Virus genome (UHGV): UHGV-0279745
DNA: 64,000 bases
DNA from: a virus
Reading direction: 5' to 3' (one strand)
The notes beneath the pieces were generated by a model. That model ran no database searches. It was not told the origin of the DNA and worked only from the letters and a program-made list of their open reading frames with translations. The position numbers and the translations under genes are program-made. The first letter of the stretch is position 1. Every line of letters begins with the position of its first letter. Shown here piece by piece: positions 39,756 through 57,002 of the stretch.

Positions 39756-39776
39756 TTAATGATGAGGGAATTCTTT

Positions 39777-39926
39777 ATGACGAATGATGTCATTAAAGTT
39801 ACTATAAAGTATATCAATCTGAATAAGAGAATCCGTTGCAAAGTAAATCGTAAAGCTATCGCTAGTCGCTGGCGTAAAGGTCCACACAAGGGTCGTAAAC
39901 GCTTTCTGGCTTTTGGGGATGTCTGA
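39777..39926 (+). CDS. small basic protein (49 aa)
   Basis: ATG with GAGGG RBS; RWRKGPHKGRKRF motif; not in ORF track. Confidence 0.35.
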   Translation: MTNDVIKVTIKYINLNKRIRCKVNRKAIASRWRKGPHKGRKRFLAFGDV

Positions 39927-40288: not shown

Positions 40289-40294
40289 CAGTTC

Positions 40295-40338
40295 CTGGGG
40301 TGCTTATGTAGCACCCCTAATCCTTATTCTTTTTGTTT
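40295..40338 (+). terminator. intrinsic terminator
   Basis: ggggtgc/gcacccc hairpin plus T-rich tail. Confidence 0.6.
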
Positions 40339-40357
40339 AAACTAATGGAGTTTTAAA

Positions 40358-41191: not shown

Positions 41192-41197
41192 ATAAAA

Positions 41198-41250
41198 GTA
41201 CCTACCTCCTTTCGGAGGTAGGTAGACTTTCTTATTTTTTTTTCTTTTTT
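41198..41250. terminator. bidirectional intrinsic terminator between convergent genes
   Basis: cctacctcc-tttc-ggaggtagg with long T-run downstream and A-run upstream. Confidence 0.7.
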
Positions 41251-41813
41251 TAAGCGCCTGGAACAATCCCAGAAGAGATATACGTCAAACCGTCAAGTTC
41301 AGTGACTTTAATCAACTTCGAAATATCCTTACCATCGGACGGCAGCTCCGTTAAGTACACCTCCAGCCGCCCTGTCCATGCCAAAGACGTCCCATTCATG
41401 GTAATGATGGTTTTATCTTTGCTGTCTGGTGCAGCTGTTGGGTTCTTAACTTCGTCGTCAGTAATCTGTAAATTGTACTTATTGCGGAAAAGCTGTAGTA
41501 CCTCAGATACCGTAGCCGCATTAACACCCGCAACAGAAACTACAAAATCACCTAAGAGGTGCTCTAAATCCAAACGACGATAAATAACGTCGATTTTACC
41601 AAACGTTTTCTGTTCAATAATTCCCTGGACGCTAAGTTGGGTATTTAATCGCGTAAATTGAGTTTCTGGTGTTTCTACCGCAGGAATATGTGACGGTGTA
41701 CCAAAATTCAACTTATCGATTGTAATACCTTTCTCTACCAAACCAGGATTCTTTTTTACTAATAACTCATAAACCAGTTGTTTTCCTGATTTACCTAATA
41801 GCGTATTAGCCAT
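41250..41813 (-). CDS. hypothetical protein (probable virion-module protein)
   Basis: ORF track; downstream of the giant gene in the same minus-strand block. Confidence 0.6.
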   Translation of the reverse strand: MANTLLGKSGKQLVYELLVKKNPGLVEKGITIDKLNFGTPSHIPAVETPETQFTRLNTQLSVQGIIEQKTFGKIDVIYRRLDLEHLLGDFVVSVAGVNAATVSEVLQLFRNKYNLQITDDEVKNPTAAPDSKDKTIITMNGTSLAWTGRLEVYLTELPSDGKDISKLIKVTELDGLTYISSGIVPGA

Positions 41814-41829
41814 TATTTCCTCTCAAACA

Positions 41830-44001
41830 TTAACGTGCTTGCGGCAAGAAGATGTTCGCGATCTGGCGTGCTGGAAGCACATCAAACGCAGAGTTAATAA
41901 AACTGCCCTGTGACCACGCAGATGCCCAGTTCTGCGCCCAAATGCTTCCTTGGATCTTGGCACGCTCTATACCGTTCGTACGTTCGTACAACGTCGCTGC
42001 GCCCAAACACGCCATAAACTCACTGAATTTATTATCGTCGTCCCAAACACCTGTGTCTGTAACGATGGGCATATACATCACACGGGACAAATCACGGATG
42101 GTAACATTGATATCACAAGACAGTGGAACAGAATCACCTGGTCGCCAACCTAAACCACCCACACCGAATTGTAAAGACAAAGACGTTACGATAGCGTTAC
42201 GGAACGAGAATCGACCTTGTGAGTAACACTCCAGATAAAACGGATGAGTGAATGATTGCTTACCCGTCGCAATTGGACATACTGCGGCGATCCAGAAGGA
42301 CAGTGGGACTAGAATTTCCTGGAAGATATCCAGGTCACTTCCCGACCATGCACGTAAAGGTATTGTCAAGTTAATATCATCGCCCGAGGCATCTGAACTG
42401 TCCCACACCTCTGGGAAGTCAATGACGGATGAATTATATAACGACATAATCCCCGTTAGATGCAACGTATCTGCTAACCCACGCATTACGGACTTAAAGC
42501 CCGTAATTAATGAATCGACCGCGTTGAAGCCGGTTTGCCCGCCGGACAAGTTTACTTCAAGTTGACGAGCTTTCGCCGTCATTGAGTTAACTGTGCTAGA
42601 GATCTCCGGCTCTTTTGTAGAATTAGAGAACGAACGAGAGACGGTGTCCTTCCCATCGATTCTCCAGGTTACCCACTGAGAACCGTTGTAGATTTCGGAC
42701 AGCGCCTGTGCTTTAATCCCTTCAATCTGTTCGCCAACCACTTTAACAAAGTCGCCGAAGAACGTCTCCATAGTCGATTCTTTACCTTTATCCGCCCAGG
42801 ACTGTATCGTATTCTGTTGTCCCTCGGTGAGGTTACTCGCATCGGCATTTTCCAAATCCTCATTCATTTTGTTTTGGATTTCTGCCGCCTGCGCCTCTAG
42901 GTCGCTTGCCGTTCCCCCAGTTTGTAACCCGGAACTAAACGCATCGAGAACCCCTTTCTCCAGTTCATCAACGCTGTTAATATCTTTACCCGACGCGTCT
43001 TTCGCCGCATAACCACCGCGTTCGGAAGCGGCTAACCGTTCCATGTCTTGCAAAGAAACTTCGTAATTTCTCACATCGTCAGAATACGAAGCTGCACCAT
43101 ACGTGCTATCCAGATAGAAATTTCGTATCCGCTCGGCGAGTTCGTCGTCACTTGAGGACTGCTTACGAAGCTCTTTTAAACGTTGATTCTGATAGTTCGC
43201 CAAAGTTTGATAACGGTTGATCATCTTAAAGACATCGAATTCACCGCCCTTTTTCCAAACCTCCGGTAACGCTTCAAAAGCCTCATCGCGTGCTTTTTTG
43301 TTCCCTTTTCCATCTCCGTCTTGACTGACCTGGAAGGTACCTAAGATACCCGTAGGAACCAAACGACGATAAACAAGTTGCGTATTCAAGATGTTCTGTA
43401 CAGCACGCAAATACAGATGCATCGTCGGTTTAACGTAATAATAACGCGACGTTTCTTTATTCAACGCTGCCGCGAGAATGCGTGGAGTAATTAAAATTAC
43501 CGCAAAAGCGACAGTACCCACCGTTGCCCATATCGCTGCCGCGCCGATATAACTTGCTATCGTACGGATCATTCCCGGATAGTCACCCGTACGCGCTAAA
43601 TATGCTAAGTTGGAATCGTACATATTCGCAAAGAACGCGGCCATGCCCAGATATTTCGGCTTTCCGAAACGGCAATGTACGTAAAACGAATTTTGGTTAA
43701 TACTTTCGTAATAATACGTCCCTAAGCGATAAGAAGCGGTTGGCATACCGTTAGCCAACGCCTTTTTCTCCGCCTCACGATTACCGGGTCGTGCAAATGC
43801 CCCAGTTGATGGGGGGTCTGCAAACCACGTAAACTGCGGAGGGCTATTAATCGCTTTACTACCGCCCATGGTCGTATCTTCAAAAGACATCATACCGTTA
43901 GAGTAGCGTCGCAAGGCCAGAAAACGTTCATCTCGGCCTTCCAACTCTCCCTTAAATAGATTTCTGACCCAGCTTGAGTCGTTAGCTGATCTAGCGTCCA
44001 C
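41830..44001 (-). CDS. hypothetical large protein (probable virion protein)
   Basis: ORF track; GTG start with AGAGG RBS; 723 aa. Confidence 0.65.
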   Translation of the reverse strand: MDARSANDSSWVRNLFKGELEGRDERFLALRRYSNGMMSFEDTTMGGSKAINSPPQFTWFADPPSTGAFARPGNREAEKKALANGMPTASYRLGTYYYESINQNSFYVHCRFGKPKYLGMAAFFANMYDSNLAYLARTGDYPGMIRTIASYIGAAAIWATVGTVAFAVILITPRILAAALNKETSRYYYVKPTMHLYLRAVQNILNTQLVYRRLVPTGILGTFQVSQDGDGKGNKKARDEAFEALPEVWKKGGEFDVFKMINRYQTLANYQNQRLKELRKQSSSDDELAERIRNFYLDSTYGAASYSDDVRNYEVSLQDMERLAASERGGYAAKDASGKDINSVDELEKGVLDAFSSGLQTGGTASDLEAQAAEIQNKMNEDLENADASNLTEGQQNTIQSWADKGKESTMETFFGDFVKVVGEQIEGIKAQALSEIYNGSQWVTWRIDGKDTVSRSFSNSTKEPEISSTVNSMTAKARQLEVNLSGGQTGFNAVDSLITGFKSVMRGLADTLHLTGIMSLYNSSVIDFPEVWDSSDASGDDINLTIPLRAWSGSDLDIFQEILVPLSFWIAAVCPIATGKQSFTHPFYLECYSQGRFSFRNAIVTSLSLQFGVGGLGWRPGDSVPLSCDINVTIRDLSRVMYMPIVTDTGVWDDDNKFSEFMACLGAATLYERTNGIERAKIQGSIWAQNWASAWSQGSFINSAFDVLPARQIANIFLPQAR

Positions 44002-44007
44002 GTTTTA

Positions 44008-44040
44008 CCTCTAAAAAAACGGGGGTAGTTTCCTACCCCC
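44008..44040 (-). terminator. putative intra-operon terminator/attenuator on minus strand
   Basis: On the minus strand: gggggtag/ctaccccc hairpin followed by T7, located between the giant gene and the 723-aa gene. Confidence 0.45.
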
Positions 44041-44049
44041 CTGTTGTTA

Positions 44050-47000
44050 TTACGCCGATTTACGACTAACGTCGAGTTGTGGCGCTGGTTGGGTTATTGA
44101 CACGTTACGTGACGCCGAACCCGGAGCGGTTGACGCAGGGTTAGCCGGTCCGTTTTGCATAGCCTGTGGTCGCTGACGAAGAATTGTTACAATCTCTTTC
44201 AGGTAGCCCGCAGACTCTTTTGCAACCGCCAGCTGCTGTACGCTGATCGGATCACCGCTGTTCACTGTAGAGCCGGTCTGTGCATCGGAAGTTACTGTTG
44301 GTGCAGGGCGGACTGATTTCTCCATCTGCTGTCTAGCACCTTCTTTTACTTTAGCAACATCCTCTTCGGCCAGGCCGTCAGCACGAGCATTTTGACCCAC
44401 CGTATCTACAACAACTGACGCATCACTCGGTGTCACGTCGCCGCCGGGGCTCGGCACCGCCGGACCACCGCCCGTCGCAGCTTTAATGTCATCGGCCCCC
44501 ATTGCACCTTTATCTGCTAAGGCTGTGTCACGATTCGCCTCGTTCGCAGCTGGCAGGTTATCTGCCGGGCCTGTGATGGACGGATCGTTAGCAGCGCCCG
44601 CAGCGATGGCTGGGGATGACGGCATTGGCGTTACGCCAGTCGTCAAGTCTTTCACCGATGCCTGATTGCCCGCAATTGCGTTTGTTCCTACTGCACCAAT
44701 CTTACCACCCATGATGCTGAGCACTTCATCCAAACTACGCAATTTTCCATTCTTGTAGAAAATTGTGCTGTTTGCCGCGATTTGATCGGCCGATGCACCA
44801 CGCGATGACGGACCGTTCGGATCACGCTTCCATTCTTGCAGGAATTTCTTACCGCCACCTTGTCCTAAGAAGTGGTAGAGGTAAACTGCCGCACCGGGAG
44901 GATCGATGCCACCTAAATCCTTTCTGGCTTTCTCGATATTGTCACGAATATGGCGGACACCAAGCAGGGCATTCGCCCACGGGTCATACTGGTCGGTTTG
45001 CGGGATACCGTAACGTCTAGCGTAAGCTTTCATCTGCTCACTCCAGGTACCGTTGATGAACTGGAACAAGCCAGCTGCAGAACTTCCTTTAGCTTTGATG
45101 CCGTATCTAAGTCCTGATTCTGCTTGTGCCATTCCCAGCGCTAACGCTGGAGGAACACCCATCATCTTCGCTACGTCTATAATCAGTGCTGCGACCGCAT
45201 TCAGGTTAGGCTTCAATCCGTCACCCAACGTTGAAATTGGATACTTAGCCGCTAACGTTTTATAATCACCGTCTTGCATCTCGCCAAGCTTCACACCGAA
45301 GTTACCGGTACTAAACGCGGCGTAATTCTTAGCCCCCATCTGACCATAAGCACCAGCCAAATCGTTTGGCGTGCCGTAATTACCACCGTCATTCGCTGCC
45401 GGTTGAAGCAGATCGCGATAAGAGGAGGAAGTATTCATCTGTTGCCGAGGTGGTTGGTCCTTCTCGTCATCGGTCAAGAACATCTGAGTCGCACGATCTT
45501 TTCGCTGCCAGTTCACACGGAAACCAGCAGAAGGCGTAGCACGCAGCGTTTTACGTACTGCCAAATCAGCTTCCTTAGACAGTTCTTTCAGGTTCTCTAA
45601 CTCCGTTGCAACTGAACCAGCGTCAGTGTTAGCATCACCCCCTAACGGGTTAAACGGTACCTCCCACACCGATTGGCGAATACCCCCTTTCAGGTTGTAC
45701 GCACCACGCATCATCAGTGCGATTTCATACAAGAACCCGCCTGTAACGCGTAGGTCCATCGGATCGGCAGCAGGGACATAACGTTTCACCCCAACCACGT
45801 ACGTCATGAAGACAGGTAAGAAGCGGTTATAGAACCAGTTCTTGTACCGATCTTCTTTTGGTCCACCAATAGCGTCAGGTGCAATCACTGCAATCGCACG
45901 TTTCCAGTCTCCTTTATACGTACAACTTTTCACATCAGTGTCTTGCAACACTTGACGTTCTAGGAGCGTATAGAGGTTACGGGTTGTTTGAGTAATGCTC
46001 ACCGCACCATAAGCTTTCAACCTTACAGATTCCAAATCACGGAGATCGGTTTCTTTAGGTAAGCTTCTCCAGTCAACTTGAACCTGAACTTGTTCGGTGC
46101 CGTCTTCCCAACCTTCAACCTTTGCAACCTCTTTGTTGCGTTCCGCATCCGCTTGAGCCAACGCTTGGGTCGATTCCGCCACAGAAGCAACTTTGTGTCC
46201 TTCGGCCACGCTGCCCGTAGCATTTACATCCTTACGTTTTTCATCACGACGCATGTTAATCGAACGAAGCACGCGTTCTTGTGCTTCAACGACTTCTTCA
46301 CCTGACAAAAACTCGGCCGGGGTAAACGTTACGAAATCCCACGCTTTAGAGAACCAACCTTGGTTAACCTTGCGGGGGTCTTCTAATGCACGGAATGCAG
46401 GTGCGTCTTTCGACATCTTCATTTTGTTAAAGATGTTCAACATGTCTGCTTTCGACACTTTCGCTGGATTACCGACGTCTGCTAACGCGATATCGTTATC
46501 CATCGATTTCAGTGCCGTAATCCAACGTAAGTAAATAGGCACAAAACGTTGTAGCATAAACGCACTAAACGCCAGCATTTCGCCTTTGTCTTCTACGTTA
46601 GTACCAAACCCTTCGGCCAGTTTCTTCACATCGTCACCAGACAAACCACGCAGCTGCGCTTGACCGTTCTCTGTATAAGAGATATACGGTTTCAAGTTGT
46701 CTTCTAAATAACGTGCTTTTGCACCGTCGTCGGAAGACCATTCATCATGGTCTCTAAAACCGTACTGCGCCAATCGCATGTTATCTAGGTACTGGGCATT
46801 TACACGATCTTTAGTTTTATAATAAAACCACGTTAACCCTGCGCCAGCGGCTACCAAACCGATAATCGGCCAGCCAACCGCAGTTACCACTGCAGATGCA
46901 GCTGTCGCGACAGCACTCACCGCAGGGACAGCCAAACGGGTCACGGCAAACTTACCAACGTTCCACAACGCTTTGCCTGCAAATCCGACCGGCTTGAAGA

Positions 47001-50000
47001 TTCCCCATTTTGCAAGTTTACCTAAGATTGAACCCACTGTGCCTAAAATACTCACGATTGGTCCTACCAACGGCAATCCTTTAAGGAAATCCATTACCCC
47101 ACGTTTACCACCTTTCTTCTCAGCCTCTTTCTTAGCCTTTTCCTCTTCCTTAGAACGCCGACGGCGTCGGAAGAACTGGAAGTAATCGCGTTTTTCATCA
47201 CTGGCAGGCGGCTTATTGCGTTGGCCGAACTTACTGAACATAGTTCTTAACAAACCTTCCGAAGCACCTGCTTTTTCCGCAGAATCACGCATGGTGTTAA
47301 ACCATGACATTTCCTGAAGATTAACCATTCGGTTCAGGCGTTCCAGTAAAGCTGACCCAACGCTACGGGCTTTCTGTTTCCCTTTATTAATCACACGTCC
47401 AGCGCTATCCGTTACGGTGTCTAAGTCTTCTTTTGCCGCATCGATGATACGTGTTTTAGACACCTTGCCTCTTGCGTAGATGTGCTGACGATAAAACTCA
47501 GCAACATCGTCATCGCGTCCTGCTAAACGACTCTCCATTCGATAACGTGTGCCGATATCGTAACGTGGGTCTCGGAAAGTATCGACCATATCGCTTGCAC
47601 GGCCACGGAAACGATCAAACCAACCACGTGCGGCACCGCCCCAACGAGAAAGACGACCACCTACCGCACTGCGATAACGGGACATTCTGTCACGCATCCG
47701 ACCACGCCAATCCCGGAACCCCTGAAAATGTTCACGGAACCCATCACGTATGTCTTTAGCACGTTGGAATAATCCTTTAACTGAGCTGGCTCCCGTATTC
47801 CGTTCCATCTGTTCTGTCCAGGTATCATCTTCTGGTTCACCTGGCAATCTCCGGTTAAGGAGTTTGTAGATACGGATTAAGATGTGGTTAGTTTTACGGC
47901 CGTTCGACCATGAGAACACACTAAACCCACCACCAGAACCCCCTTCCTTACGGTTCTGCCACCAACGTGTCAGAGGGTTATCAGAAGCCAACTCTTTGAG
48001 CTTCTCAAATCCGCGTTTTGCATTGTTCCACAAACGTGCTGGCATTCCCGTTACACGGGAAATCATGCTTTGTAAACGGGTTTTCTCTGCACCCTCTGGA
48101 ACCTCATTTAACCACTCGCGTGCTTTCTCGAACAACGAAGCCGCTTTAGGCGAAATGAAACCCAGAAGTTTCTTCGGTAAAGTCACAGCTTTGTTTACCG
48201 CCGTTCCTGCTTTCCCAGAAATGTACTGGAAAAGCGCTTGAACTTTACCACCTTTGTAGAAACGCAGTTTACCTGCGGCAGCCAAATCAGCAGCAGCTAA
48301 GATTAAATTACCCGCTTCATCGACGATGTCACGTCCCAGTTTAATATCGTCGAGAGTTTTAAGTTGAATCAGCTTCTCAGTTTTCGGGTCAGCCTGGTAA
48401 TATTCCCCAGCTTCTAAACGACTTCCTTGTAATACGACGTTGCCACGTTCATCGTAGATGTCGCGAACGCCTAAAACACCTTTACCGAAAGCTACGGCAG
48501 AATTCCAACCCGTCGATAATGTACCGGTTACTAACCCTTTCAGTCGGCTAAATACGCCGGGACCTTCGGAGGAACCGCCTGAGAATTTCCCACGAATAAA
48601 ACCACCTAATGCTTGTAGGCGATCTTTCCCACGTAGGAACAGATTCTTACCAAACCGTCCTACACCAGAACCGGTATCCCAAAGCACTCCAGCCCAGCGA
48701 CGTAACAAACCTGTCTCGCCTAGTACAATACGTTTGCGCTTACGACGACGTTTACGGCCCGATTCACTCGAACTTTCAGGTTCGTCGCCGTCATCACGAC
48801 TACCGCCTAAACTGGCTAGAAGAATACCTTCCTCATCCATGTTCTTAACGTGTTTGAGGATATCTTGCACGGTGCTAGATTCAGGCTGTTTACGTACGGC
48901 ATCAATCAATCGATCGAACTGTTGTTCCAGCCCGGCGTTCGTATCTGGACGGCTGCTTAAGAGCTCAACAAAGTTGGTAGATTTCTCTCCATAAAGTACC
49001 GCAGCGAGTTGACGGGCGCTTAAACCACGACCGCGACCACCTTTTCCACCACCACGTACGTTGGACAGTTCTTTGTCTTCAAAGCTCGGCTCTGCTCCTG
49101 CACCCATCCGACGCAAGTAATCACCCAACGCAGAACCATTTTGCAGCTTACGTTGAATCTCTTGCTCACGGGTTAACGAACGGCCAGAACGGGTCTTACC
49201 CATCGACAGGTCGTTAAATAGCGTATAGGGATCGTTAATGTCCTTATCGACTTCGAAAATGTCGTTCTTCGCATCGTATTTAAAAATACCGGAATCGCGA
49301 AGTGCGTTCTCGCCGTAAATCACAGACGCAGCATCAACCGTGTCTTGACGTGCACGAATCGTTGACTGAATAGCGGCTATTTTGTTTGAAATCGCATTAC
49401 TCAGTTCATGGTGACCGCCAACCAGTTCCGCAGAACGGGCTTCTAAAACACCCTGAATCGCTTCCACAGCGTTTGCGTTCATGTAACGATACATGTGCAT
49501 CGGGTCTTTCAATAAAGACCCTACATCGAACGCTTTCCCTTCCGAGGCACGAGACTCGATGTAGTCCGCTAACGCCTGACGTGTTTTCCTATCGAGCGTT
49601 TTATCTTTATCGATAAAGTCGACAGTGTCGTTGATGTACGTCTGTAAACGTTTGCGCTGATCGTCATTAGCAACGGCCTTACGTACACGATTACCAATAA
49701 CTTTGCGATCAACCATACCGCGCGTGGTCAGGTCGTATACCTGATCGTGGTGTTCGCCATACCCACGACGAATAGATTTGTTAATCTCGGACAGTAACGT
49801 CGGAATAACTTCGGTGATACTAAGGTAAGCTTTACGATCGAATTTCGCTGCGGCAGAAAGAGATTCCGCAGAGCGATCGTCTAATGCTAAGGTTTCGCGA
49901 CGTAGCGGGTTAACTAGCCCCAATTCGTGCATTAGTCGAAACAGATCAGCTAACGGACCGCTTGTTTCTCCCGCTATTGCCGAGTTAGAAATAGACGACA

Positions 50001-51174
50001 AATTTCCAAAGCCATACTTCGCCAACTGTAGGCGTTTCATGACTTCTGGGTTTTTCTCTAACTCGCCACGGGTCCAGTTCTGAAGACGCTCGATCTGGGG
50101 TTGTAAGAGACGTTTTGCTAACCAACCACCTGCAAAACCTGCCGCTTTATTACGCGAGTTTGTGTTACGACGGTCAGGAGACAACGATGAGCTGTCCGAC
50201 ATGTCAAAGTCATCTTCCTGAGCCATCCCTAGAACTTGTTCTAGAATCCCACGACCATCACTAAAGATGTTCGAGATTTTCTTCTTCGCGTTTTCGCGAA
50301 TCTGACCAATGAAATTATCTGCGTAGTGTAAGGGGTTCATCCACTCCGCAGCTTTACGTTTTACATTAGCCCAACGAATTTCAGAAAACTCTTCCTTCGC
50401 GTAGTCGGGTAGTGCCGTGTTCTTAACGATGGCTTCTAATGCCGGGGTGTTGCGTGCAAACTCGTCTTGTTTGAGTTTCGCAATATCCTGCAAAGCAAAC
50501 AATGTCCGATATTGCAGCTCTAACTGCTTACGCTGAACATTCAACAACACGCCACGACTTAAGCTAGTCGTTAAGTTGACGTCTTTTGCAATACCGATTA
50601 CGGTCTGGAACAGCGCGTCGGACTTCATGTCCTTAATCGTGTCGCGCAAGCGGTCTTCAACCATCCCCTCTTGCGCCTCACGTTGCTGGTCCGCTGTTTG
50701 CGGTGCACCTGAGAACACGCTGTCCAGCTCACGATCCATCATCGCTTGTTTAGGATCGTAATTCCCATAGTCGATTTGATCGTTACGTGCCCACTTGTCG
50801 ATTTTCCGTGTTACGGATTCCGGTAAATACCGTTTCAGTGTTGGGCCTAACTGTCTCGCTTGCATCTTAACGACGCGAGACGTCTTTTCAATCTCGTCTT
50901 TCGTATGGGCCAGAATGTCTTGACCTGCGGCTTTAACGTTTTGATAGCCTTCGTAGGCTTCTGCCGCAGGTTTAGGCATCCCTTTTAAAATAACCTGATC
51001 ACGTTTGTTTTCGGGCCAGATAGTCGACAACGCCGACTTACGGGCAGCACGAAATGTGTCCATGACCGGGTTACGCGATTGGTCTTGTTGACGAGGGGGC
51101 TCATCAAAATCGTCCCAGTCGTCCATGTTATCAAGATCGATTTCATCGAAATCATCTTTACCTTTTTTAGCCAT
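44050..51174 (-). CDS. giant virion-type protein (2374 aa) with transmembrane segments and C-terminal lytic transglycosylase (SLT) domain
   Basis: Uninterrupted 7.1-kb ORF; SLT motif GMAQAESGLRYG...GLFQF encoded about 44830..45160; Gly/Ala-rich hydrophobic helices about 46800..47090; acidic N-terminus. Confidence 0.8.
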   Translation of the reverse strand: MAKKGKDDFDEIDLDNMDDWDDFDEPPRQQDQSRNPVMDTFRAARKSALSTIWPENKRDQVILKGMPKPAAEAYEGYQNVKAAGQDILAHTKDEIEKTSRVVKMQARQLGPTLKRYLPESVTRKIDKWARNDQIDYGNYDPKQAMMDRELDSVFSGAPQTADQQREAQEGMVEDRLRDTIKDMKSDALFQTVIGIAKDVNLTTSLSRGVLLNVQRKQLELQYRTLFALQDIAKLKQDEFARNTPALEAIVKNTALPDYAKEEFSEIRWANVKRKAAEWMNPLHYADNFIGQIRENAKKKISNIFSDGRGILEQVLGMAQEDDFDMSDSSSLSPDRRNTNSRNKAAGFAGGWLAKRLLQPQIERLQNWTRGELEKNPEVMKRLQLAKYGFGNLSSISNSAIAGETSGPLADLFRLMHELGLVNPLRRETLALDDRSAESLSAAAKFDRKAYLSITEVIPTLLSEINKSIRRGYGEHHDQVYDLTTRGMVDRKVIGNRVRKAVANDDQRKRLQTYINDTVDFIDKDKTLDRKTRQALADYIESRASEGKAFDVGSLLKDPMHMYRYMNANAVEAIQGVLEARSAELVGGHHELSNAISNKIAAIQSTIRARQDTVDAASVIYGENALRDSGIFKYDAKNDIFEVDKDINDPYTLFNDLSMGKTRSGRSLTREQEIQRKLQNGSALGDYLRRMGAGAEPSFEDKELSNVRGGGKGGRGRGLSARQLAAVLYGEKSTNFVELLSSRPDTNAGLEQQFDRLIDAVRKQPESSTVQDILKHVKNMDEEGILLASLGGSRDDGDEPESSSESGRKRRRKRKRIVLGETGLLRRWAGVLWDTGSGVGRFGKNLFLRGKDRLQALGGFIRGKFSGGSSEGPGVFSRLKGLVTGTLSTGWNSAVAFGKGVLGVRDIYDERGNVVLQGSRLEAGEYYQADPKTEKLIQLKTLDDIKLGRDIVDEAGNLILAAADLAAAGKLRFYKGGKVQALFQYISGKAGTAVNKAVTLPKKLLGFISPKAASLFEKAREWLNEVPEGAEKTRLQSMISRVTGMPARLWNNAKRGFEKLKELASDNPLTRWWQNRKEGGSGGGFSVFSWSNGRKTNHILIRIYKLLNRRLPGEPEDDTWTEQMERNTGASSVKGLFQRAKDIRDGFREHFQGFRDWRGRMRDRMSRYRSAVGGRLSRWGGAARGWFDRFRGRASDMVDTFRDPRYDIGTRYRMESRLAGRDDDVAEFYRQHIYARGKVSKTRIIDAAKEDLDTVTDSAGRVINKGKQKARSVGSALLERLNRMVNLQEMSWFNTMRDSAEKAGASEGLLRTMFSKFGQRNKPPASDEKRDYFQFFRRRRRSKEEEKAKKEAEKKGGKRGVMDFLKGLPLVGPIVSILGTVGSILGKLAKWGIFKPVGFAGKALWNVGKFAVTRLAVPAVSAVATAASAVVTAVGWPIIGLVAAGAGLTWFYYKTKDRVNAQYLDNMRLAQYGFRDHDEWSSDDGAKARYLEDNLKPYISYTENGQAQLRGLSGDDVKKLAEGFGTNVEDKGEMLAFSAFMLQRFVPIYLRWITALKSMDNDIALADVGNPAKVSKADMLNIFNKMKMSKDAPAFRALEDPRKVNQGWFSKAWDFVTFTPAEFLSGEEVVEAQERVLRSINMRRDEKRKDVNATGSVAEGHKVASVAESTQALAQADAERNKEVAKVEGWEDGTEQVQVQVDWRSLPKETDLRDLESVRLKAYGAVSITQTTRNLYTLLERQVLQDTDVKSCTYKGDWKRAIAVIAPDAIGGPKEDRYKNWFYNRFLPVFMTYVVGVKRYVPAADPMDLRVTGGFLYEIALMMRGAYNLKGGIRQSVWEVPFNPLGGDANTDAGSVATELENLKELSKEADLAVRKTLRATPSAGFRVNWQRKDRATQMFLTDDEKDQPPRQQMNTSSSYRDLLQPAANDGGNYGTPNDLAGAYGQMGAKNYAAFSTGNFGVKLGEMQDGDYKTLAAKYPISTLGDGLKPNLNAVAALIIDVAKMMGVPPALALGMAQAESGLRYGIKAKGSSAAGLFQFINGTWSEQMKAYARRYGIPQTDQYDPWANALLGVRHIRDNIEKARKDLGGIDPPGAAVYLYHFLGQGGGKKFLQEWKRDPNGPSSRGASADQIAANSTIFYKNGKLRSLDEVLSIMGGKIGAVGTNAIAGNQASVKDLTTGVTPMPSSPAIAAGAANDPSITGPADNLPAANEANRDTALADKGAMGADDIKAATGGGPAVPSPGGDVTPSDASVVVDTVGQNARADGLAEEDVAKVKEGARQQMEKSVRPAPTVTSDAQTGSTVNSGDPISVQQLAVAKESAGYLKEIVTILRQRPQAMQNGPANPASTAPGSASRNVSITQPAPQLDVSRKSA

Positions 51175-51203
51175 AACGTTTAATCCGTATCAGGAGATTT
51201 AGC

Positions 51204-52823
51204 GTGAATAAACTTAATTGGGTTGACTTTTATCTGCTCAATGTAAACAAGTCTCTTGTGTCGCGATTACGACCCGTCACGACCACGGATACTTTCCAGG
51301 GGTTAACAAAAAACTTTCACCCCGAAGGTCTTTACTCTACAGAGATATTTGGACTCACGGGGAGTGAAGCGCGAGACTCTACTTTCTCTTATATCGATAT
51401 TAAACTCGATATCATTTCGCCGACGGTGTGTTTGGCGTTATTCCAACTCAAACAACTCTACGAAGAAATTTGTTCTGGAAAACGCTACGCAACGTGGAGC
51501 GAAAAAGAAAAAGATTTCGAACCGGCCTTGCCGGGAGACCCAGGCGCAGATACCGGTTTTAACTTCTTCCTCAGTCACTATAACGATTTAAAACCTAAGC
51601 GTAACGAGTCCCTACAACGTGACGAAACCGTGGATTTCTTTTTGAAATTCCGTCCCGTTAGTCTTAGTCGATACGTTCTCGTGTTACCCGCGGGTTTACG
51701 CGATTTAGTAATTCGACAAGATGGTAGAGAACAGGAAGAAGAAATCGGCGGGATGTATCGTCGGTTGGTATCACTCGCCAGGGCGATCCCTGACCGAGCA
51801 ACCCGTGTTGAATTAACTAACCCCGTACGCTGGAAGCTGCAACAAACCTTCAACGATATCTGGATGTATTTCTTTAACATCCAAGACGGTAAAGGGGGTT
51901 TCCAACGTCGTAAAGTGACGTCTCGTAAATTAATGAACGGGACACGTAACGTACTGTCCTCATTCTCGACGGGGTCTAAGTGCATGGGTCGTGAAGACGC
52001 TATTCGTCCCACCGACACCAAAATTGGTTTATACCAGGGCTTAAAAGCGTTACTCCCCGTTGCGCAATACCAGATACGTGAACGTTACCTCGGTAACATC
52101 CGTGCTGGTGACGGCAACCTTTACGGCGTAAACACCAAAACCCTTAAACGTGAATTCTTGGAAGTAGGTGGTCGTGTATACGACACATTCACCACCGACG
52201 ATGGGATTGAATCCTTAATCAACCGAATGGAAGCTCGCGAGCTTCGCCATCAGCCGATTATGTTGGACGACACCCACTACGTTGCGTTGGTTTACCAAGA
52301 CACCAAACATTTTAAGGTGTTCTACGATATTGAAGAACTTCCTAAAACGTTTGACCGAAAATTCGTCCACGGTATGACGCTCGTCGAATTGCTTTATTTG
52401 TCGGGCTACGAGCTTTGGAACGATTATTTCGGTTTCGTTACACGTTATCCCGTTACAGGCCGAGGCTCGACGTATTCATCGACCATAAGATTGGAGACCA
52501 CCACATCATCTTTATACTTAAAAGAACTGGAAGATGACTGGGAAACTGAAAAACCCCGAGGGGCTATCAGCTACCCTGACCGGTCGGTTCCTACCTTCGT
52601 TGAGTCGATGGCACCACACCCTTCACGCTTAGGTGGCTTAGGGGGTGACTACGACGGCGATACCGGGTCGTTTAACGCGCCTATGTCCCAGGAAGCACTC
52701 GAGGAAAACCGGAATTGGATACACTCGAAAAACTACTGGTTCGATTCTGATGGGAACTTTAAAATCAATCCTATCAACAACGTGATTAAACGTGCAACGC
52801 AAGCGTTATTAAAGAACCCATAA
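51204..52823 (+). CDS. multisubunit RNA polymerase beta-prime-like subunit (N-terminal catalytic fragment), putative
   Basis: GTG start with CAGGAG RBS; aa 482-486 DYDGD (nt 52647..52661) followed by NAPMSQEALEE, matching the beta-prime NADFDGD...PL..EA..EA active-site region. Confidence 0.5.
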   Translation: MNKLNWVDFYLLNVNKSLVSRLRPVTTTDTFQGLTKNFHPEGLYSTEIFGLTGSEARDSTFSYIDIKLDIISPTVCLALFQLKQLYEEICSGKRYATWSEKEKDFEPALPGDPGADTGFNFFLSHYNDLKPKRNESLQRDETVDFFLKFRPVSLSRYVLVLPAGLRDLVIRQDGREQEEEIGGMYRRLVSLARAIPDRATRVELTNPVRWKLQQTFNDIWMYFFNIQDGKGGFQRRKVTSRKLMNGTRNVLSSFSTGSKCMGREDAIRPTDTKIGLYQGLKALLPVAQYQIRERYLGNIRAGDGNLYGVNTKTLKREFLEVGGRVYDTFTTDDGIESLINRMEARELRHQPIMLDDTHYVALVYQDTKHFKVFYDIEELPKTFDRKFVHGMTLVELLYLSGYELWNDYFGFVTRYPVTGRGSTYSSTIRLETTTSSLYLKELEDDWETEKPRGAISYPDRSVPTFVESMAPHPSRLGGLGGDYDGDTGSFNAPMSQEALEENRNWIHSKNYWFDSDGNFKINPINNVIKRATQALLKNP

Positions 52824-52832
52824 GGCTAAGCA

Positions 52833-55800
52833 ATGCTGCTCATTAAACAGTTTAACCAACGCTTCTCGGTGCGTAAAACTGACGAGTTTGGTAATCCGAG
52901 GATTATCCCGCTCGAGAAGCTACAGATACCACGTGGTTCTGTACTCCATGTCATTGATCTCGACCAGGTGGTATTAGCGCCACCTGCAACACTCGAGATT
53001 ATTCAACCGTTAGAAAAACCTGCACAGGTTCGTCACCACTTTAAATTACCGGAAGACGGTATTAGCGGTCATCCGCGCAACAAACCTGTTCAGGGGCAAG
53101 AACGTGCTATCTTTGCTTACCACCGTGCAAACCGCCCGATGCGTCGTCTTACCTCAGACGATCTGGTTCGCAAAGACTTAAAAGTTCTCCTGGTCGAGAA
53201 CTACACACCGATGCTATCGCACTACTACTATCCTGACACCCAGTTAGCCTGGTACGATAGACTGCGTAACATCCAACTGTTGATGATTAACCAGTTCAAA
53301 TACGACACGCAAGAATACATGCGTCAGAACTATTTCGTTATTGAACTGGGTTCGACTCTACCTTCGTTCCAGAAGTTTCAAACAACCTATAACGACCGCG
53401 TTAAGAGCAAGATTGAGAAGTTCCAGGACTTCAACTTGCTGTGGTTATTGGAGTTGTTTGCTTGGGCTTATGGAAAACAATCCGATTCCCTATTCTCGGG
53501 AATGGATTTAACTCAGCTGTCACGAATGAACTTTATCTTCACCCACAACACGGGCTTTACGTCCATGAACATGGGTGTTGTAGAGAAAATGCGTAAGTCG
53601 TCCGGCGGTCGTTTAAGTGATGACCAAATGGCCAGGATGTTCTACCGTACGCTGGTGCGTGTAATGACACAAGCACCGTCTAACGCGTACGAAGCTGAAT
53701 TCCTAACGCCTGAAGGCGACGAGCGTGTTTTCCTTAAAGACGTCGAAGAAGAAACCGTTGATGTTGTCGACGATGACGATGTTGTTAATGACGCTGTGGT
53801 GGAATCCGATAACACCTTCGATGAAAAAGAAGACGTTGTTATTGAAGAACCGAAGGAAGACGTCAAACCGACGACCATCGTCGTCGAGAAAGTCATTCCA
53901 CATGACGAGATTATTAAACAGGAAGCACAACGCTTAGCTGAAGCGGGCCGCTTAAGTTCTAAAGCATATCAGTTCCTGTCAGAATCGTCTAAACGTTTCG
54001 TTCAGCTACCTAACCCGTATAACCCGAAAGAAACCTACGGGGAAGCACTGACTGTTCACGAGAAAGATATTGTCGTTAAAGCCGAACCGAAAAAAGTTCA
54101 GCGGCTTGTTACCGATGAAGGGTGGGCAGAGAACGTCACCGACCAGATGGTGAAACAATACAACCAGACCATGATGACCAAAGACGTACTGGCGGCGGTC
54201 GCCAGTTCACAACGTTTGGGTCTGGCGGTTCACAACCACACGGTGGAAAAAGAAGTTTCTGTTACAGGAACTATCGAGCACCACACTTTACGTGTTCAGC
54301 CAGTCGGTGGTGAGCCAACAACCGTTCGCTTCTCTATCCCAGGCTTGACCGAGGACGGTACTTGGGTCGCTAATGGTGTCGAATACACCATGCGTCGCCA
54401 ACGTGTGGACTTACCGATTCGTAAAGTTGCACCGGATACTGTCGCACTGACTACCGCTTACGGTAAAAACTTTGTCCGTCGTAGTGATAAGGTCGCGAAC
54501 GATTACGGTCGTTGGTTAACCAACGCGATTATCACACGCGCTGTTGACCCAACAAACACCGAAGTCACCGATGCACGTTTAGCAAATGTGTTCGATCCTA
54601 CGCAACATCTGCCTCGTCAGTATACGGAGATTGCACGCCGTATTGCCAGCTTTAATGCGAACGGCTATATGTGGAACTTCGACTACAAAGAAGCCGTTAA
54701 CTTCTTTAACGACGAGCAACTCAGAGACGCCGATGCTGCCAAACTTCTGCCAGTGGCGAAACGTCCGCGTAGTGAAACAATCCTGGCAATGGATGACAAA
54801 TCCATGCTTTACGGTGTGAACGGAAACAAAGTTGAACCGGTGGGGACTATCGCAGAGGTACTGGGCTTTAATAACCAGAAAGTGCCTCGCGAAATGACCG
54901 AGCTGTCTTTGATGGGTAAATCTTTGTCGCTTGGTTTTATCTTCTCGTTCTATCTTGGACTCCAGGGAATGTTGAAACATTTCGGTATCCAGTACGAGTT
55001 GGTTCCTACAGGACAGCGTGTTGATAAGAATGCCTACGACAGTATTATTCGACTACAAGACTGTAAACTTTTAGTTACTTGCGATAACGATCAGCAGAGG
55101 ATGATTCTGCATGGTTTGGATCGCTATCTCAAACACCTGGTTGCTTATACCGAATCAGAAGCAGACCGCGAAGACATTTACCTGAACTTATTACGTGAAG
55201 CAGATGGCCTAACGCCACGGTACATCAACGAGCTGAAACAGATGCGGTCCGCGTTTGTTGACGACATGCACGCACGTATCCTCAGGAAAATGGGTGAGCC
55301 GGAAACCTTTATTGGCTTGCTGGAACGTTCTAACGAACTGTTACAAACCGACCACTCTTTACCAGAGATTAACGGCGATGAAATGATGTTCTTAGGAAAT
55401 CAGAGGATTGCCTACCACATCTATACTGCGATGGTCAGAGCGATGCGTAACTACAATAACGCACCGGGCAGTAACCGTAAGTTCGAACTGACGCAAGATA
55501 TGGTTTGGGGTGCTATTAACTCCGACCCGTCGGTACTTTTGGCACCAGGCGCTAACCCTATCCAGTCAATTAAAGAAAAAGACGTTATTACGATGGGGGG
55601 TACAGGTGGTCGTAATCGTAAAACGATGGTCTACCACACACGTGAGTTCCAACCCAGTGATATCGGGATAGTCTCGGGTAACACCGTAGATAACGGCGAC
55701 GTAGGGATTACTGCTTTCGTCACCAATAACCCACGTTTTGACACCGTTGACGGTACTACGTTTAAGCGTGAAGAGAAAACCCCGAAACCGAGCGATACCC

Positions 55801-56999: not shown

Positions 57000-57002
57000 T
57001 CT

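What the first reader, a model, noticed from the sequence alone, without database searches (positions are those of the whole stretch)
44050..51174. Giant 2374-aa virion-type protein combining transmembrane helices with a C-terminal lytic transglycosylase domain
A single 7.1-kb ORF with an acidic N-terminus, long coiled-coil-like stretches, a cluster of Gly/Ala-rich hydrophobic helices (nt about 46800..47090) and an SLT domain (GMAQAESGLRYG...GLFQF, nt about 44830..45160) followed by a low-complexity Ala/Gly/Pro tail. This architecture fits an ejected cell-envelope-penetrating or tape-measure-like protein, as I recall for phiKZ gp181. A hairpin-plus-T-run on the minus strand (44008..44040) separates it from the downstream 723-aa and 187-aa genes.
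Basis: partly seen in the sequence, partly recalled or inferred. Interest (0 to 1): 0.7.

Follow-up and report, generated by a model that had tools for sequence, protein, structure and literature searches.

The report
Giant jumbo-phage tail lysin protein
This 2374-residue gene is this phage's copy of a known giant tail protein of phiKZ-like jumbo phages (phiKZ gp181, SPN3US gp239), generally taken to be the tail's tape measure carrying a cell-wall-cutting enzyme; it is real but an ordinary new member of a known family.

Summary
ORF 44050..51174 (minus strand) encodes 2374 aa with an acidic N-terminus, a mostly helical N-terminal ~1350 aa, a hydrophobic Gly/Ala-rich cluster (aa 1359-1451), an SLT lytic-transglycosylase domain (aa 1994-2161, catalytic Glu2019) and a low-complexity tail. 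A strong hairpin plus T7 run follows the stop codon.

It is not a fusion artefact. Sixty-one phage genomes and more than 100 database proteins carry one collinear ORF of 2200-2570 aa.

It is the orthologue of phiKZ gp181 and SPN3US gp239 (about 59% identity to the SPN3US and Asesino groups), in the same gene order: virion RNA polymerase genes divergent upstream, baseplate spacer gene (gp182 orthologue) downstream. Published work shows the SPN3US protein is tail-associated, the phiKZ gene is essential, and its C-terminal domain is muralytic.

Most likely mechanism: a tape-measure-type protein carried in the tail tube, expelled on contraction, cutting peptidoglycan and inserting its hydrophobic cluster into a membrane, as in T5 pb2.

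The ruler role is unproven. A phiKZ-versus-Goslar comparison showed no length scaling, and canonical coiled coils were not detected.

Verdict: new member of a known kind, low interest. The common database label "tail fiber protein" is probably wrong.

The parts
44050..51174 (-). Whole gene: 2374-aa, about 262-kDa giant tail protein, orthologue of phiKZ gp181 and SPN3US gp239 (stop codon TAA at 44050..44052)
   Evidence: ORF list and translation; phrog_3201 full length, 2088 bits; tblastn gives 61 phage records with at least 80% coverage; BLASTP to gp181; molecular weight
51085..51174 (-). Acidic N-terminus (aa 1-30, 12 D/E), starting with the family-conserved MAKK
49225..51174 (-). Conserved N-terminal region (aa 1-650): long helices, conserved even in the phiKZ-type clade
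   Evidence: Conservation profile; AF2 secondary structure, 74% helix in aa 1-440 and pLDDT 70-90 for aa about 350-690; BLASTP to gp181 aa 26-576
47101..49224 (-). Variable, mostly helical central region (aa 651-1358), basic and low-confidence in AF2; candidate ruler segment together with the N-terminal region
48250..48471 (-). Beta-hairpin island with two copies of a YD-repeat-like motif (RDIYDERGNVVLQGSRLEAGEYY and RDIVDEAGNLILAAADLAAAGKLRFY), aa about 902-975; the best-conserved part of the central region
   Evidence: Motif search across homologues; conservation; AF2 strands at 905-959 with pLDDT about 80
46822..47100 (-). Hydrophobic Gly/Ala-rich cluster (aa 1359-1451), about three membrane-span-length segments flanked by basic residues (RRRRRSKEEEKAKKEAEKKGGKRG upstream, KTKDR downstream)
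   Evidence: Kyte-Doolittle peaks 1.80 and 1.88; the protein-wide hydrophobic maximum lies in this aligned segment in 78 of 80 homologues and at 0.5-0.72 of the length in 113 of 117 further representatives
45538..46815 (-). Family-specific, confidently folded, mostly helical domain after the hydrophobic cluster (aa 1454-1879); function unknown
45196..45537 (-). Variable, disordered linker (aa 1880-1993)
   Evidence: Lowest conservation; AF2 pLDDT below 50 for aa about 1882-1936
44692..45195 (-). SLT / gp144-like lytic transglycosylase domain (aa 1994-2161)
45118..45120 (-). Codon of the predicted catalytic Glu2019 (motif AQAES), aligned with the catalytic Glu115 of phiKZ gp144
   Evidence: HMMER alignment; conserved in 75 of 80 homologues
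44053..44691 (-). Ala/Gly/Pro/Ser/Thr-rich low-complexity C-terminal tail (aa 2162-2374)
   Evidence: Composition; low identity but high column occupancy across the family
44179..44238 (-). Conserved amphipathic helix QQLxVxxxxxxxLxxI inside the tail (aa about 2313-2332); candidate docking or oligomerisation element (inferred)
44053..44112 (-). Conserved extreme C-terminal motif with a near-invariant Arg at position -4 (R2371); candidate hub-docking element (inferred)
44013..44040 (-). Intrinsic-terminator-like hairpin (8-bp G+C-rich stem, GAAA loop) plus T7 run, between the giant gene and the next gene
   Evidence: an analogous hairpin lies in the phiKZ gp181-gp182 spacer; none found in the SPN3US-type phage EC001
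41830..44001 (-). Downstream 723-aa gene: orthologue of phiKZ gp182, the hexameric baseplate 'spacer' ring between tube initiator and hub (probably Goslar gp203, SPN3US gp238); GTG start preceded by GAGG
   Evidence: BLASTP to gp182 E=4e-35; phrog_3181; phiKZ atlas PMC13250141; Goslar preprint; SPN3US gp238 classed as tail
41250..41813 (-). Downstream 187-aa DUF7941 gene, orthologue of a SPN3US-type virion protein (presumably SPN3US gp237, classed as tail)
   Evidence: Pfam PF25613 E=4.7e-24; 54% identity to EC001 MGA_235; SPN3US gp237 classed as tail; DUF7941 fibres in Goslar
41199..41224 (.). Bidirectional terminator-like hairpin (11-bp stem) closing the three-gene minus-strand unit against the convergent MazG-like gene
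   Evidence: MazG assignment

Best explanation
The gene encodes this jumbo phage's orthologue of phiKZ gp181 and SPN3US gp239. This is a giant, essential tail protein that most likely serves as the tail's tape-measure and ejection protein.

Proposed mechanism:
1. During tail assembly, a few copies sit inside the tail tube. The mostly helical N-terminal ~1350 residues extend along the lumen. The C-terminal end docks at the baseplate centre, next to the spacer ring encoded by the adjacent gene.
2. On sheath contraction the protein is expelled through the tube tip.
3. Its SLT domain (Glu2019) locally cleaves peptidoglycan.
4. Its hydrophobic Gly/Ala-rich cluster (aa 1359-1451) inserts into a host membrane to help form the conduit for DNA and ejected proteins. 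This follows the order helix, hydrophobic segment, muralytic domain seen in T5 pb2.

Shown here: orthology, domain anatomy, conservation of the catalytic Glu and of the hydrophobic cluster, and the SLT fold.

Taken from the literature on orthologues: tail location, essentiality and muralytic activity.

Inferred: position in the tube lumen, ruler function, orientation, ejection and membrane insertion.
For: Orthology and synteny:
- phrog_3201 over the full length.
- 59% identity over 100% of the length to SPN3US-type and Asesino-type proteins.
- BLASTP to gp181 at both ends.
- Same gene order as phiKZ gp175-gp182.

Tail location of orthologues:
- SPN3US gp239 gives 521/595/594 PSMs in wild-type virions against 0/4/4 in tailless particles, normalised ratio 0.0066. 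It is unprocessed at 259.1 kDa.
- It is also absent from a tailless amber mutant.

Essentiality and activity of orthologues:
- phiKZ orf181 has no transposon insertions in 6714 bp and is called the likely tape measure.
- The gp181 C-terminal domain is muralytic at 60,000 U/mg.

Enzyme module:
- Pfam SLT.
- gp144 homology with Glu2019 aligned to Glu115 and the Tyr197 equivalent conserved.
- Glu conserved in 75 of 80 homologues. Four of the five exceptions carry GH19 at the same place. Other members carry VanY or glucosaminidase, so the C-terminal position is a swappable muralytic payload.

Tape-measure-like features:
- 65% helix and 3.5% strand in aa 1-1200.
- Tightly constrained family length, IQR 2193-2406 aa among 131 representatives.
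- The adjacent gene encodes the baseplate ring that sits under the tube.
- Neither chimallivirus cryo-EM atlas places this protein in any resolved symmetric part of the virion. That is expected for a protein in the tube lumen.

Membrane element:
- The hydrophobic cluster is the protein-wide hydrophobic maximum in 78 of 80 homologues, and lies at 0.5-0.72 of the length in 113 of 117 further representatives.

Mechanistic template:
- T5 pb2.
Against: - No experiment or structure places any family member inside the tube. The two cryo-EM studies simply do not mention it.
- No match to canonical tape-measure models in Pfam or NCBIfam.
- No tail-chaperone gene with a frameshift lies upstream. The upstream neighbour is a divergent vRNAP gene.
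- The two-point ruler test is negative. The Goslar tube (46 layers x 39.2 A = 180 nm) is 11% longer than the phiKZ tube (43 x 37.73 A = 162 nm). Yet the proteins are 2252 and 2237 aa, and the segments before the hydrophobic cluster are about 1232 and 1255 aa.
- If fully helical at 1.5 A per residue the protein would be about 356 nm long, far longer than a roughly 200-nm tail. At most part of it can be the ruler.
- phiKZ gp181 itself has only a weakly hydrophobic cluster, with no 19-mer of Kyte-Doolittle score 1.3 or more.
- Transmembrane assignment rests on hydropathy only. AF2 gives pLDDT 30-45 for this segment.
Confidence: 0.7

Rival explanations
1. It is the central cell-puncturing needle or spike of the baseplate, as proposed for phiKZ gp181 in 2008 (a trimeric needle carrying a lysozyme, by analogy with T4 gp5).
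For: A review citing Briers 2008 and Fokine 2008 lists gp181 as a 'needle-like cell-puncturing device', putative trimer. The muralytic domain is analogous to the lysozyme of T4 gp5.
Against: The 2026 phiKZ atlas assigns the spike to gp164, its tip to gp163.1, the hub to gp101 and the pin to gp174, with gp182 as the spacer ring; gp181 is not part of it. The Goslar baseplate hub and spike density is fully assigned to gp13, gp48, gp203 and gp62. The protein is predicted mostly helical, with no beta-helix or OB-fold spike features.
Confidence: 0.04
2. It is a tail fibre, as most database records label it.
For: Annotations such as 'tail fiber protein' in phiKZ, SPN3US, Goslar and many other records, and the phrog_3201 label.
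Against: - No fibre-like features: no trimeric beta-helix, collagen-like or receptor-binding domains; 65% helix in the N-terminal half.
- It carries an internal hydrophobic cluster and a peptidoglycan-cleaving enzyme.
- The N-terminal model has no structural match to fibres.
- The phiKZ TnSeq study names gp145 and gp146 as the putative tail fibres.
- The label looks like propagated legacy annotation.
Confidence: 0.02
3. It is a head-packaged ejection protein of the T7 gp16 type (internal virion protein with an SLT domain and membrane segments), not a tail component.
Against: SPN3US gp239 is essentially absent from DNA-filled tailless heads, with a ratio of 0.0066, and behaves like the sheath and tube proteins. 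It is not cleaved by the prohead protease. The similarity to gp16 is confined to the roughly 170-aa enzyme module.
Confidence: 0.04
4. It sits in the tail lumen and is ejected, but it does not set tail length. Its main job is to build the trans-envelope conduit, possibly including shaping the early-infection vesicle. Tail length would be set by something else.
For: - The two-point phiKZ/Goslar comparison shows no scaling of length with tube length.
- The hydrophobic cluster and the 426-aa family-specific domain after it are at least as conserved as the helical part.
- How chimalliviruses inject DNA into a lipid vesicle is stated as an open question.
- No canonical TMP profile match.
Against: The very tight length constraint on a roughly 2300-aa, largely low-complexity helical protein is most simply explained by a ruler role. 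No other tape-measure candidate is known in these phages; orf181 and gp239 are the only ones named. An 11% tube difference could be absorbed by differences in helical content or extension.
Confidence: 0.18
5. The giant ORF is an assembly or sequencing artefact that fuses several genes.
For: None beyond its unusual size.
Against: Sixty-one phage genomes align over at least 80% of the length at one locus. 111 database proteins are mostly 2200-2570 aa. An independent assembly has an identical gene layout. SPN3US gp239 is detected by mass spectrometry with a mature weight of 259.1 kDa.
Confidence: 0.01

Closest known systems
SPN3US gp239 (Seoulvirus) and the Erwinia phage Asesino/Stratton counterparts
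   Same: Collinear over 100% of the length at about 59% identity, nearly the same size (2373-2381 aa), and the same neighbours: vRNAP genes, gp238-type baseplate gene and gp237-type DUF7941 gene. gp239 is experimentally tail-associated and called the tape measure.
   Different: Only about 59% identical, and DNA similarity is barely detectable (69% over 29% of the gene), so this is a different genus-level lineage. The intergenic terminator-like hairpin found here was not found in the SPN3US-type phage EC001.
phiKZ gp181 (2237 aa, 'tail-associated endolysin')
   Same: Orthologous N-terminal region, post-hydrophobic domain and SLT domain. Identical synteny with gp178, gp180 and gp182. SLT at the same relative position. 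A hairpin follows the gene. Essential, muralytic C-terminal domain.
   Different: Only 22-26% identity. The centre (aa about 1150-1300 here) is largely absent from the distant family clade that includes phiKZ-type proteins. The gp181 hydrophobic cluster is much weaker, with maximum Kyte-Doolittle score 1.22 against 1.88 here.
Phage T5 tape measure protein pb2
   Same: Same order of functional elements: long helical ruler, about 46 hydrophobic residues (two membrane helices), then a C-terminal muralytic domain. pb2 is expelled from the tube, forms a membrane channel and digests peptidoglycan.
   Different: No sequence homology detected. T5 has a non-contractile tail. The pb2 enzyme is a Zn-peptidase, not an SLT, and is cleaved off, whereas SPN3US gp239 appears unprocessed. 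pb2 is 1219 aa (my own knowledge). The protein here has an extra 426-aa domain between the hydrophobic segment and the enzyme.
phiKZ gp144 endolysin / whisker-collar protein (PDB 3BKH, 9XPS)
   Different: gp144 is a 260-aa protein with an N-terminal peptidoglycan-binding domain. Here the module is embedded at aa 1994-2161 of a giant protein. The gp144 Glu178 position is Asp here (my reading of the alignment).
T7 gp16-type internal virion protein D
   Different: gp16 has the SLT at its N-terminus, is packaged in the head core and belongs to short-tailed phages. The orthologue of the protein here is a tail protein.
Tape measure proteins with embedded lytic domains in Gram-positive phages (for example Staphylococcus phage phiIPLA35 TMP with muramidase; mycobacteriophage TM4 TMP)
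   Same: The concept of a ruler protein carrying a peptidoglycan hydrolase (the phiIPLA35 reference is listed; TM4 is from my own knowledge).
   Different: Unrelated in sequence, much shorter, and from siphophages. They match Pfam and TIGR tape-measure models, which this protein does not.

Membership tests
phiKZ gp181 / SPN3US gp239 giant tail protein family (phrog_3201) | Full-length collinear sequence homology | tested here: met
   phrog_3201 E=0, 2088 bits; 100% coverage at 59% identity to SPN3US and Asesino types; gp181 hits at both ends
phiKZ gp181 / SPN3US gp239 giant tail protein family (phrog_3201) | Conserved gene neighbourhood: divergent vRNAP beta-type genes upstream, gp182-type baseplate gene downstream | tested here: met
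phiKZ gp181 / SPN3US gp239 giant tail protein family (phrog_3201) | Architecture: helical N-terminal half, hydrophobic cluster at about 0.6 of the length, family-specific domain, then a C-terminal muralytic module | tested here: met
phiKZ gp181 / SPN3US gp239 giant tail protein family (phrog_3201) | Component of the tail in purified virions | not testable with these tools
   Known only for orthologues: SPN3US gp239 ratio tailless/WT 0.0066
Tail tape measure proteins (functional class) | Protein length determines tail length | tested here: inconclusive
   Family length is tightly constrained, and 1358 pre-hydrophobic residues x 1.5 A = 204 nm. But the phiKZ/Goslar comparison shows no scaling with an 11% tube difference. 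A genetic test is needed.
Tail tape measure proteins (functional class) | Located in the tail tube lumen with the C-terminus at the baseplate hub | not testable with these tools
   Neither cryo-EM study mentions it. A conserved C-terminal helix and terminal motif are compatible with docking.
Tail tape measure proteins (functional class) | Extended, predominantly alpha-helical protein | tested here: met
   65% helix and 3.5% strand in aa 1-1200. Canonical heptad coiled coil was not detected.
Tail tape measure proteins (functional class) | Gene preceded by tail-assembly chaperone genes with a programmed frameshift and followed by baseplate or hub genes | tested here: not met
   It is followed by the baseplate spacer gene, but the upstream neighbour is a divergent vRNAP gene only 29 nt away. 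This gene order is typical of lambda-like and Mu-like tail modules and is not universal.
Tail tape measure proteins (functional class) | Match to curated tape-measure sequence models (Pfam or NCBIfam/TIGR) | tested here: not met
   Pfam returned only SLT; NCBIfam returned nothing
SLT / family-1 lytic transglycosylases (Pfam PF01464; gp144-like) | Sequence match above the gathering score, with the Glu-Ser catalytic motif | tested here: met
   31 bits against a cut-off of 21.3; the AES motif with E2019 aligns to gp144 E115; conserved in 75 of 80 homologues
SLT / family-1 lytic transglycosylases (Pfam PF01464; gp144-like) | Lysozyme-like alpha-helical fold | tested here: met
SLT / family-1 lytic transglycosylases (Pfam PF01464; gp144-like) | Non-hydrolytic cleavage giving 1,6-anhydroMurNAc products | not testable with these tools
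   Requires an enzyme assay. Muralytic activity is shown only for the phiKZ gp181 domain.
T7 gp16-type internal virion proteins | Packaged in the head core; N-terminal SLT | tested here: not met
   The SLT is C-terminal. The orthologue is absent from tailless heads. Similarity is limited to the enzyme module.
Central spike / cell-puncturing device (T4 gp5-like) | OB-fold plus beta-helix trimer at the baseplate centre | tested here: not met
   No such fold in either AF2 model. The spike positions in phiKZ and Goslar are occupied by other proteins.

The most novel reading that the evidence does not exclude
The family-wide hydrophobic cluster and the 426-aa family-specific domain that follows it may be the phage-encoded machinery that breaches and remodels the inner membrane. 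After ejection from the tail they would form the conduit through which DNA and virion proteins enter. They would also help shape or nucleate the lipid early-phage-infection (EPI) vesicle that is peculiar to chimalliviruses.

The held literature states that how the genome gets into a lipid vesicle is unknown. None of the vesicle papers I read mentions this protein.

My evidence does not exclude this reading and does not test it.
Probability: 0.15. Interest if true: 0.75.

Novelty: new member of a known kind. Interest (0 to 1): 0.2.

Why it matters
For this window it mainly fixes the annotation. The gene, with the two genes after it, is a tail and baseplate unit of a phiKZ-like jumbo phage from a lineage not represented in the phage collection searched (best 59% protein identity).

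Three points have wider use:

1. The label 'tail fiber protein' carried by most records of this family is contradicted by the anatomy and by published proteomics and structures. It should read tail tape-measure or virion-associated lysin.

2. Family-wide analysis gives a clear module map: conserved helical N-terminal region, hydrophobic cluster at about 0.6 of the length, a signature domain of unknown function, a swappable muralytic payload (SLT, GH19, VanY, glucosaminidase), and a conserved C-terminal docking-like motif. This map can guide mutagenesis in the tractable models phiKZ, SPN3US and Goslar.

3. The protein is the most obvious unexamined candidate for the membrane-penetration step that precedes formation of the early-infection vesicle.

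Tried and rejected
- Foldseek of the N-terminal 1200-aa model against the PDB: no hit with E below 1. The model is low-confidence (mean pLDDT 58), so this says nothing either way.
- afdb50 fold search: library not available.
- NCBIfam scan: no hit.
- Tandem repeat search in the gene: none.
- Heptad-register test for coiled coils: essentially negative.
- Exact-sequence look-up of the window protein: not on record. The 99% relative was found.
- Comparison of the 187-aa protein with phiKZ gp184: no similarity. phiKZ gp184 is the anti-defence protein Tad1, so the third gene of the unit differs between lineages.
- A literature hit for 'gp181 + tape measure' in the phage G paper refers to an unrelated phage G gene.
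- My first phiKZ coordinate guess missed the locus.
- Simple ruler arithmetic: 1358 residues x 1.5 A = 204 nm looked attractive, but the phiKZ/Goslar comparison did not support proportional scaling. I do not rely on it.
- tRNA and Rfam scans of the whole window: nothing found.
Full report
**1. The observation**

The window contains a single open reading frame on the minus strand from ATG 51174 to the stop at 44050-44052, encoding 2374 residues of about 262 kDa with a single Cys.

- The first 30 residues hold 12 Asp/Glu.
- Two strongly hydrophobic Gly/Ala-rich stretches lie at aa 1359-1388 and 1414-1450, nt 46825..47100, with Kyte-Doolittle 19-mer peaks of 1.80 and 1.88. Basic clusters flank them.
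- Pfam finds only one domain, SLT (PF01464), at aa 1998-2085, E=2e-7, above the gathering score.
- The last ~270 residues are 48-51% Ala/Gly/Pro/Ser/Thr.
- Nine bases after the stop codon, an 8-bp G+C-rich stem with a GAAA loop (44040..44021) is followed by seven T. Its folding energy is -17.3 kcal/mol, z=-3.1, and none of 200 shuffles folds as well.
- A GAGG and the GTG start of the 723-aa gene at 44001 follow directly.

The one claim that does not hold well is 'coiled-coil-like'. AlphaFold2 predicts long helices, with 65% helix in aa 1-1200. A heptad-register test against shuffled sequence showed almost no excess.

**2. Not an artefact**

- tblastn against 50,697 phage records finds 261 records, and 61 of them align over at least 80% of the query at a single locus.
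- A search of 5.8 billion proteins returns 111 relatives, nearly all 2200-2570 aa.
- A separate public assembly (Logan ERR3941247) carries a 99%-identical 2374-aa ORF flanked by the same 1388-, 539-, 723- and 187-aa genes.

**3. What it is**

The window comes from a phiKZ-like (chimallivirus-type) jumbo phage.
- On one side lie the two virion RNA polymerase beta-type genes, then phiKZ gp177- and gp176-type head proteins and the head maturation protease.
- On the other side lie a gp182-type gene, a DUF7941 gene, MazG and thymidylate synthase.
- This is the gene order of phiKZ gp175-gp182 and of SPN3US-type phages.

The giant protein matches phrog_3201 over its whole length at 2088 bits.
- It is about 59% identical over 100% of its length to the SPN3US-type and Erwinia Asesino/Stratton proteins.
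- It aligns to phiKZ gp181 at both ends, aa 12-550 with E=2e-17 and aa 1463-2258 with E=1e-35.
- The 723-aa neighbour is the gp182 orthologue, E=4e-35.
- At the DNA level nothing in the collection is close: 69% identity over 29% of the gene. The phage therefore represents a lineage not in that collection.

**4. What is known about the family**

- SPN3US gp239 (259.1 kDa) is called the tail tape measure protein.
- In the SPN3US supplementary table it gives 521/595/594 spectrum matches in wild-type virions against 0/4/4 in tailless particles, a normalised ratio of 0.0066. That behaviour matches the sheath and tube proteins.
- Its mature mass equals the full-length mass, so it is not processed.
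- gp238 (82.2 kDa, by size and gene order the 723-aa orthologue) and gp237 (19.9 kDa, presumably the 187-aa orthologue; 54% identity to the EC001 copy) are also classed as tail proteins.
- In phiKZ, orf181 has no transposon insertion in 6714 bp. [quoted passage not shown]
- The gp181 C-terminal domain is muralytic at 60,000 U/mg.
- The older proposal that gp181 is the needle-like puncturing device conflicts with the 2026 phiKZ atlas. The atlas assigns the spike, tip, hub and pin to gp164, gp163.1, gp101 and gp174, and shows gp182 as a hexameric spacer ring between the tube initiator and the hub.
- Neither that atlas nor the 2026 Goslar structure mentions the giant protein or a tape measure. 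Its place in the virion is therefore still not seen directly.

**5. Anatomy from family-wide analysis**

I aligned 80 family members, computed conservation, and made two AlphaFold2 models with 52-sequence alignments. The modules are:

(a) aa 1-650. Conserved across the whole family, long helices, with a better-defined region at about aa 350-690.

(b) aa 651-1358. Variable, basic, helical and low-confidence. It contains one well-conserved beta-hairpin island at aa about 902-975. The island carries two copies of a YD-repeat-like motif, RDIYDxxGNVVL...GxYY, and the first copy recurs at the same position in most distant homologues checked.

(c) aa 1359-1451. The hydrophobic cluster.

(d) aa 1454-1879. 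A confidently folded (pLDDT about 90), mostly helical domain.

(e) aa 1880-1993. A variable, disordered linker.

(f) aa 1994-2161. The SLT domain (pLDDT above 90).

(g) aa 2162-2374. The low-complexity tail. It nevertheless ends in a conserved amphipathic helix (aa about 2313-2332) and a terminal motif with a near-invariant Arg four residues from the end.

**6. The enzyme module**

- By sequence, the only solved relatives are phiKZ gp144 (3BKH and 9XPS chain S) at E=2e-19. Glu2019 aligns with the catalytic Glu115 and the Tyr197 equivalent is conserved.
- The Glu-Ser pair is present in 75 of 80 aligned homologues.
- Four of the five exceptions carry a GH19 domain at the same position. Goslar gp204 has a weak GH19 match and a COG3179 note.
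- More distant members carry VanY plus SLT, or glucosaminidase plus VanY.
- The C-terminal position is therefore a swappable muralytic payload.

**7. The hydrophobic cluster**

- In 78 of 80 aligned members the most hydrophobic 19-mer of the entire protein lies in this aligned segment, and 75 of 80 reach a Kyte-Doolittle score of 1.6 or more.
- In an independent set of 117 full-length representatives from an exhaustive HMMER search, the protein-wide hydrophobic maximum lies at 0.5-0.72 of the length (median 0.59) in 113, and scores 1.6 or more in 109.
- phiKZ gp181 is an outlier, with only a weakly hydrophobic Gly/Ala-rich stretch and a maximum of 1.22.
- No dedicated transmembrane predictor was available. 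AF2 gives low confidence for this segment as a monomer. 'Transmembrane' is therefore an inference from hydropathy, segment length and flanking charges.

**8. The domain after the cluster**

- It has no solved structural analogue. In BFVD it matches only family members.
- The exhaustive search found 329 cluster representatives. In the 150 listed, the domain sits almost always inside 2100-2650-aa proteins at the same relative position.
- It is a signature of this family. Its function is unknown.

**9. Mechanism**

The best-supported reading is a tape-measure-type tail protein that is also the ejected envelope-breaching protein. The closest mechanistic template is T5 pb2. That protein is a helical ruler in the tube, followed by about 46 hydrophobic residues that insert into the membrane to form a channel. 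A C-terminal muralytic domain follows, which is expelled and digests peptidoglycan. The order of elements here is the same.

Supporting points:
- tail location, essentiality and muralytic activity of orthologues;
- helical character;
- adjacency to the gene for the ring that sits directly under the tube;
- absence from all resolved symmetric parts of two chimallivirus virions;
- a tightly constrained family length, IQR 2193-2406 aa.

Points against, or untested:
- no canonical tape-measure profile match;
- no upstream chaperone pair;
- a negative two-point test of simple length scaling. The phiKZ tube is 43 x 37.73 A = 162 nm with gp181 at 2237 aa and about 1255 aa before the cluster. The Goslar tube is 46 x 39.2 A = 180 nm with gp204 at 2252 aa and about 1232 aa before the cluster.

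The phiKZ tube lumen is reported as about 68 A wide. That leaves room for folded domains, but I did not test this.

My confidence by step:
- about 0.97 that this is a gp181/gp239-family member;
- about 0.9 that it is a tail component;
- about 0.6 that it sets tail length;
- about 0.5 that it is ejected and inserts into a membrane.

**10. Rivals**

- The central-spike reading is contradicted by the published baseplate structures.
- The tail-fibre label is unsupported by anatomy.
- The head-packaged gp16-like reading is contradicted by the SPN3US tailless-particle data.
- The fusion-artefact reading is refuted.
- A live alternative is that the protein is ejected and builds the conduit but does not measure the tail.

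**11. Novelty and score**

The most novel reading that remains open is a role for the hydrophobic cluster and signature domain in forming the inner-membrane conduit and the early-infection vesicle. The Goslar authors state explicitly that this step is not understood, and none of the vesicle papers I read mentions this protein. That reading is speculative.

Overall interest is low for the finding as such.

Noticed in passing
window 48250..48471 (-), aa about 902-975 of the giant protein: Two copies of a YD-repeat-like motif (RDIYDERGNVVLQGSRLEAGEYY and RDIVDEAGNLILAAADLAAAGKLRFY) form a confidently predicted beta-hairpin island in an otherwise helical, variable region. The first copy recurs at the same position in most distant homologues checked, and some longer homologues have further copies. 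Function unknown.
   Followed up: partly
Family members P0041, P0042, P0044, P0045, P0090, P0107; Goslar gp204 (L005 418..7176): The C-terminal muralytic module is swapped within an otherwise collinear giant scaffold: GH19 in place of SLT, VanY plus SLT, or glucosaminidase plus VanY. Goslar's copy has a weak GH19 match and a COG3179 note rather than SLT.
   Followed up: partly
window 44053..44238 (-), aa about 2313-2374: The low-complexity tail ends in a family-wide conserved amphipathic helix (QQLxV...L..I) and a terminal motif with a near-invariant Arg at position -4. This may be the element that docks in the baseplate hub or spacer.
   Followed up: partly
window 41830..44001 (-): The 723-aa gene is the orthologue of phiKZ gp182, now known to form the hexameric spacer ring between tube initiator and hub (probably Goslar gp203, SPN3US gp238). 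The giant gene and the gene for the ring beneath the tube are therefore adjacent and probably co-transcribed.
   Followed up: yes
window 41250..41813 (-): The 187-aa gene is a DUF7941 protein, 54% identical to the SPN3US-type copy (SPN3US gp237, presumably the same gene, is classed as tail). In Goslar, DUF7941 proteins are very abundant virion proteins reported to form fibres. It has no similarity to phiKZ gp184 (Tad1), which lies near the corresponding position in phiKZ.
   Followed up: partly
window 41199..41224: A perfect 11-bp-stem hairpin with T-rich tracts on both strands lies between the end of the 187-aa gene and the convergent MazG-like gene. It looks like a bidirectional terminator closing both transcription units.
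   Followed up: no
window 51175..51203: Only 29 nt separate the start of the giant gene from the divergent GTG start of the vRNAP gene, which has a strong AGGAG. No sigma-70-like promoter was found there, so promoters for both genes must lie inside the neighbouring coding sequences or be of the phage's own type.
   Followed up: no
L003 17335..24045 (phiKZ gp181) compared with window aa 1359-1451: phiKZ gp181 has no strongly hydrophobic 19-mer (maximum Kyte-Doolittle score 1.22) where nearly all other family members score 1.6 or more. The model phage is atypical for the family's most conserved physico-chemical feature.
   Followed up: partly
L003 and L005 (phiKZ and Goslar), with published tail dimensions: Tube length differs by about 11% between phiKZ (43 layers) and Goslar (46 layers), while the giant proteins differ by under 1% in total length and the pre-hydrophobic segments by about 2% in the opposite direction. 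This does not fit a simple fixed residues-per-nm ruler.
   Followed up: partly
window 44001..46000: G+C content rises to 0.52 against about 0.42-0.47 over most of the window. The rise coincides with the Ala/Gly/Pro-rich C-terminal part of the giant gene, so amino-acid composition probably explains it rather than foreign origin.
   Followed up: no
window 1..64000: No tRNA genes and no Rfam family at gathering threshold anywhere in the 64-kb window.
   Followed up: yes
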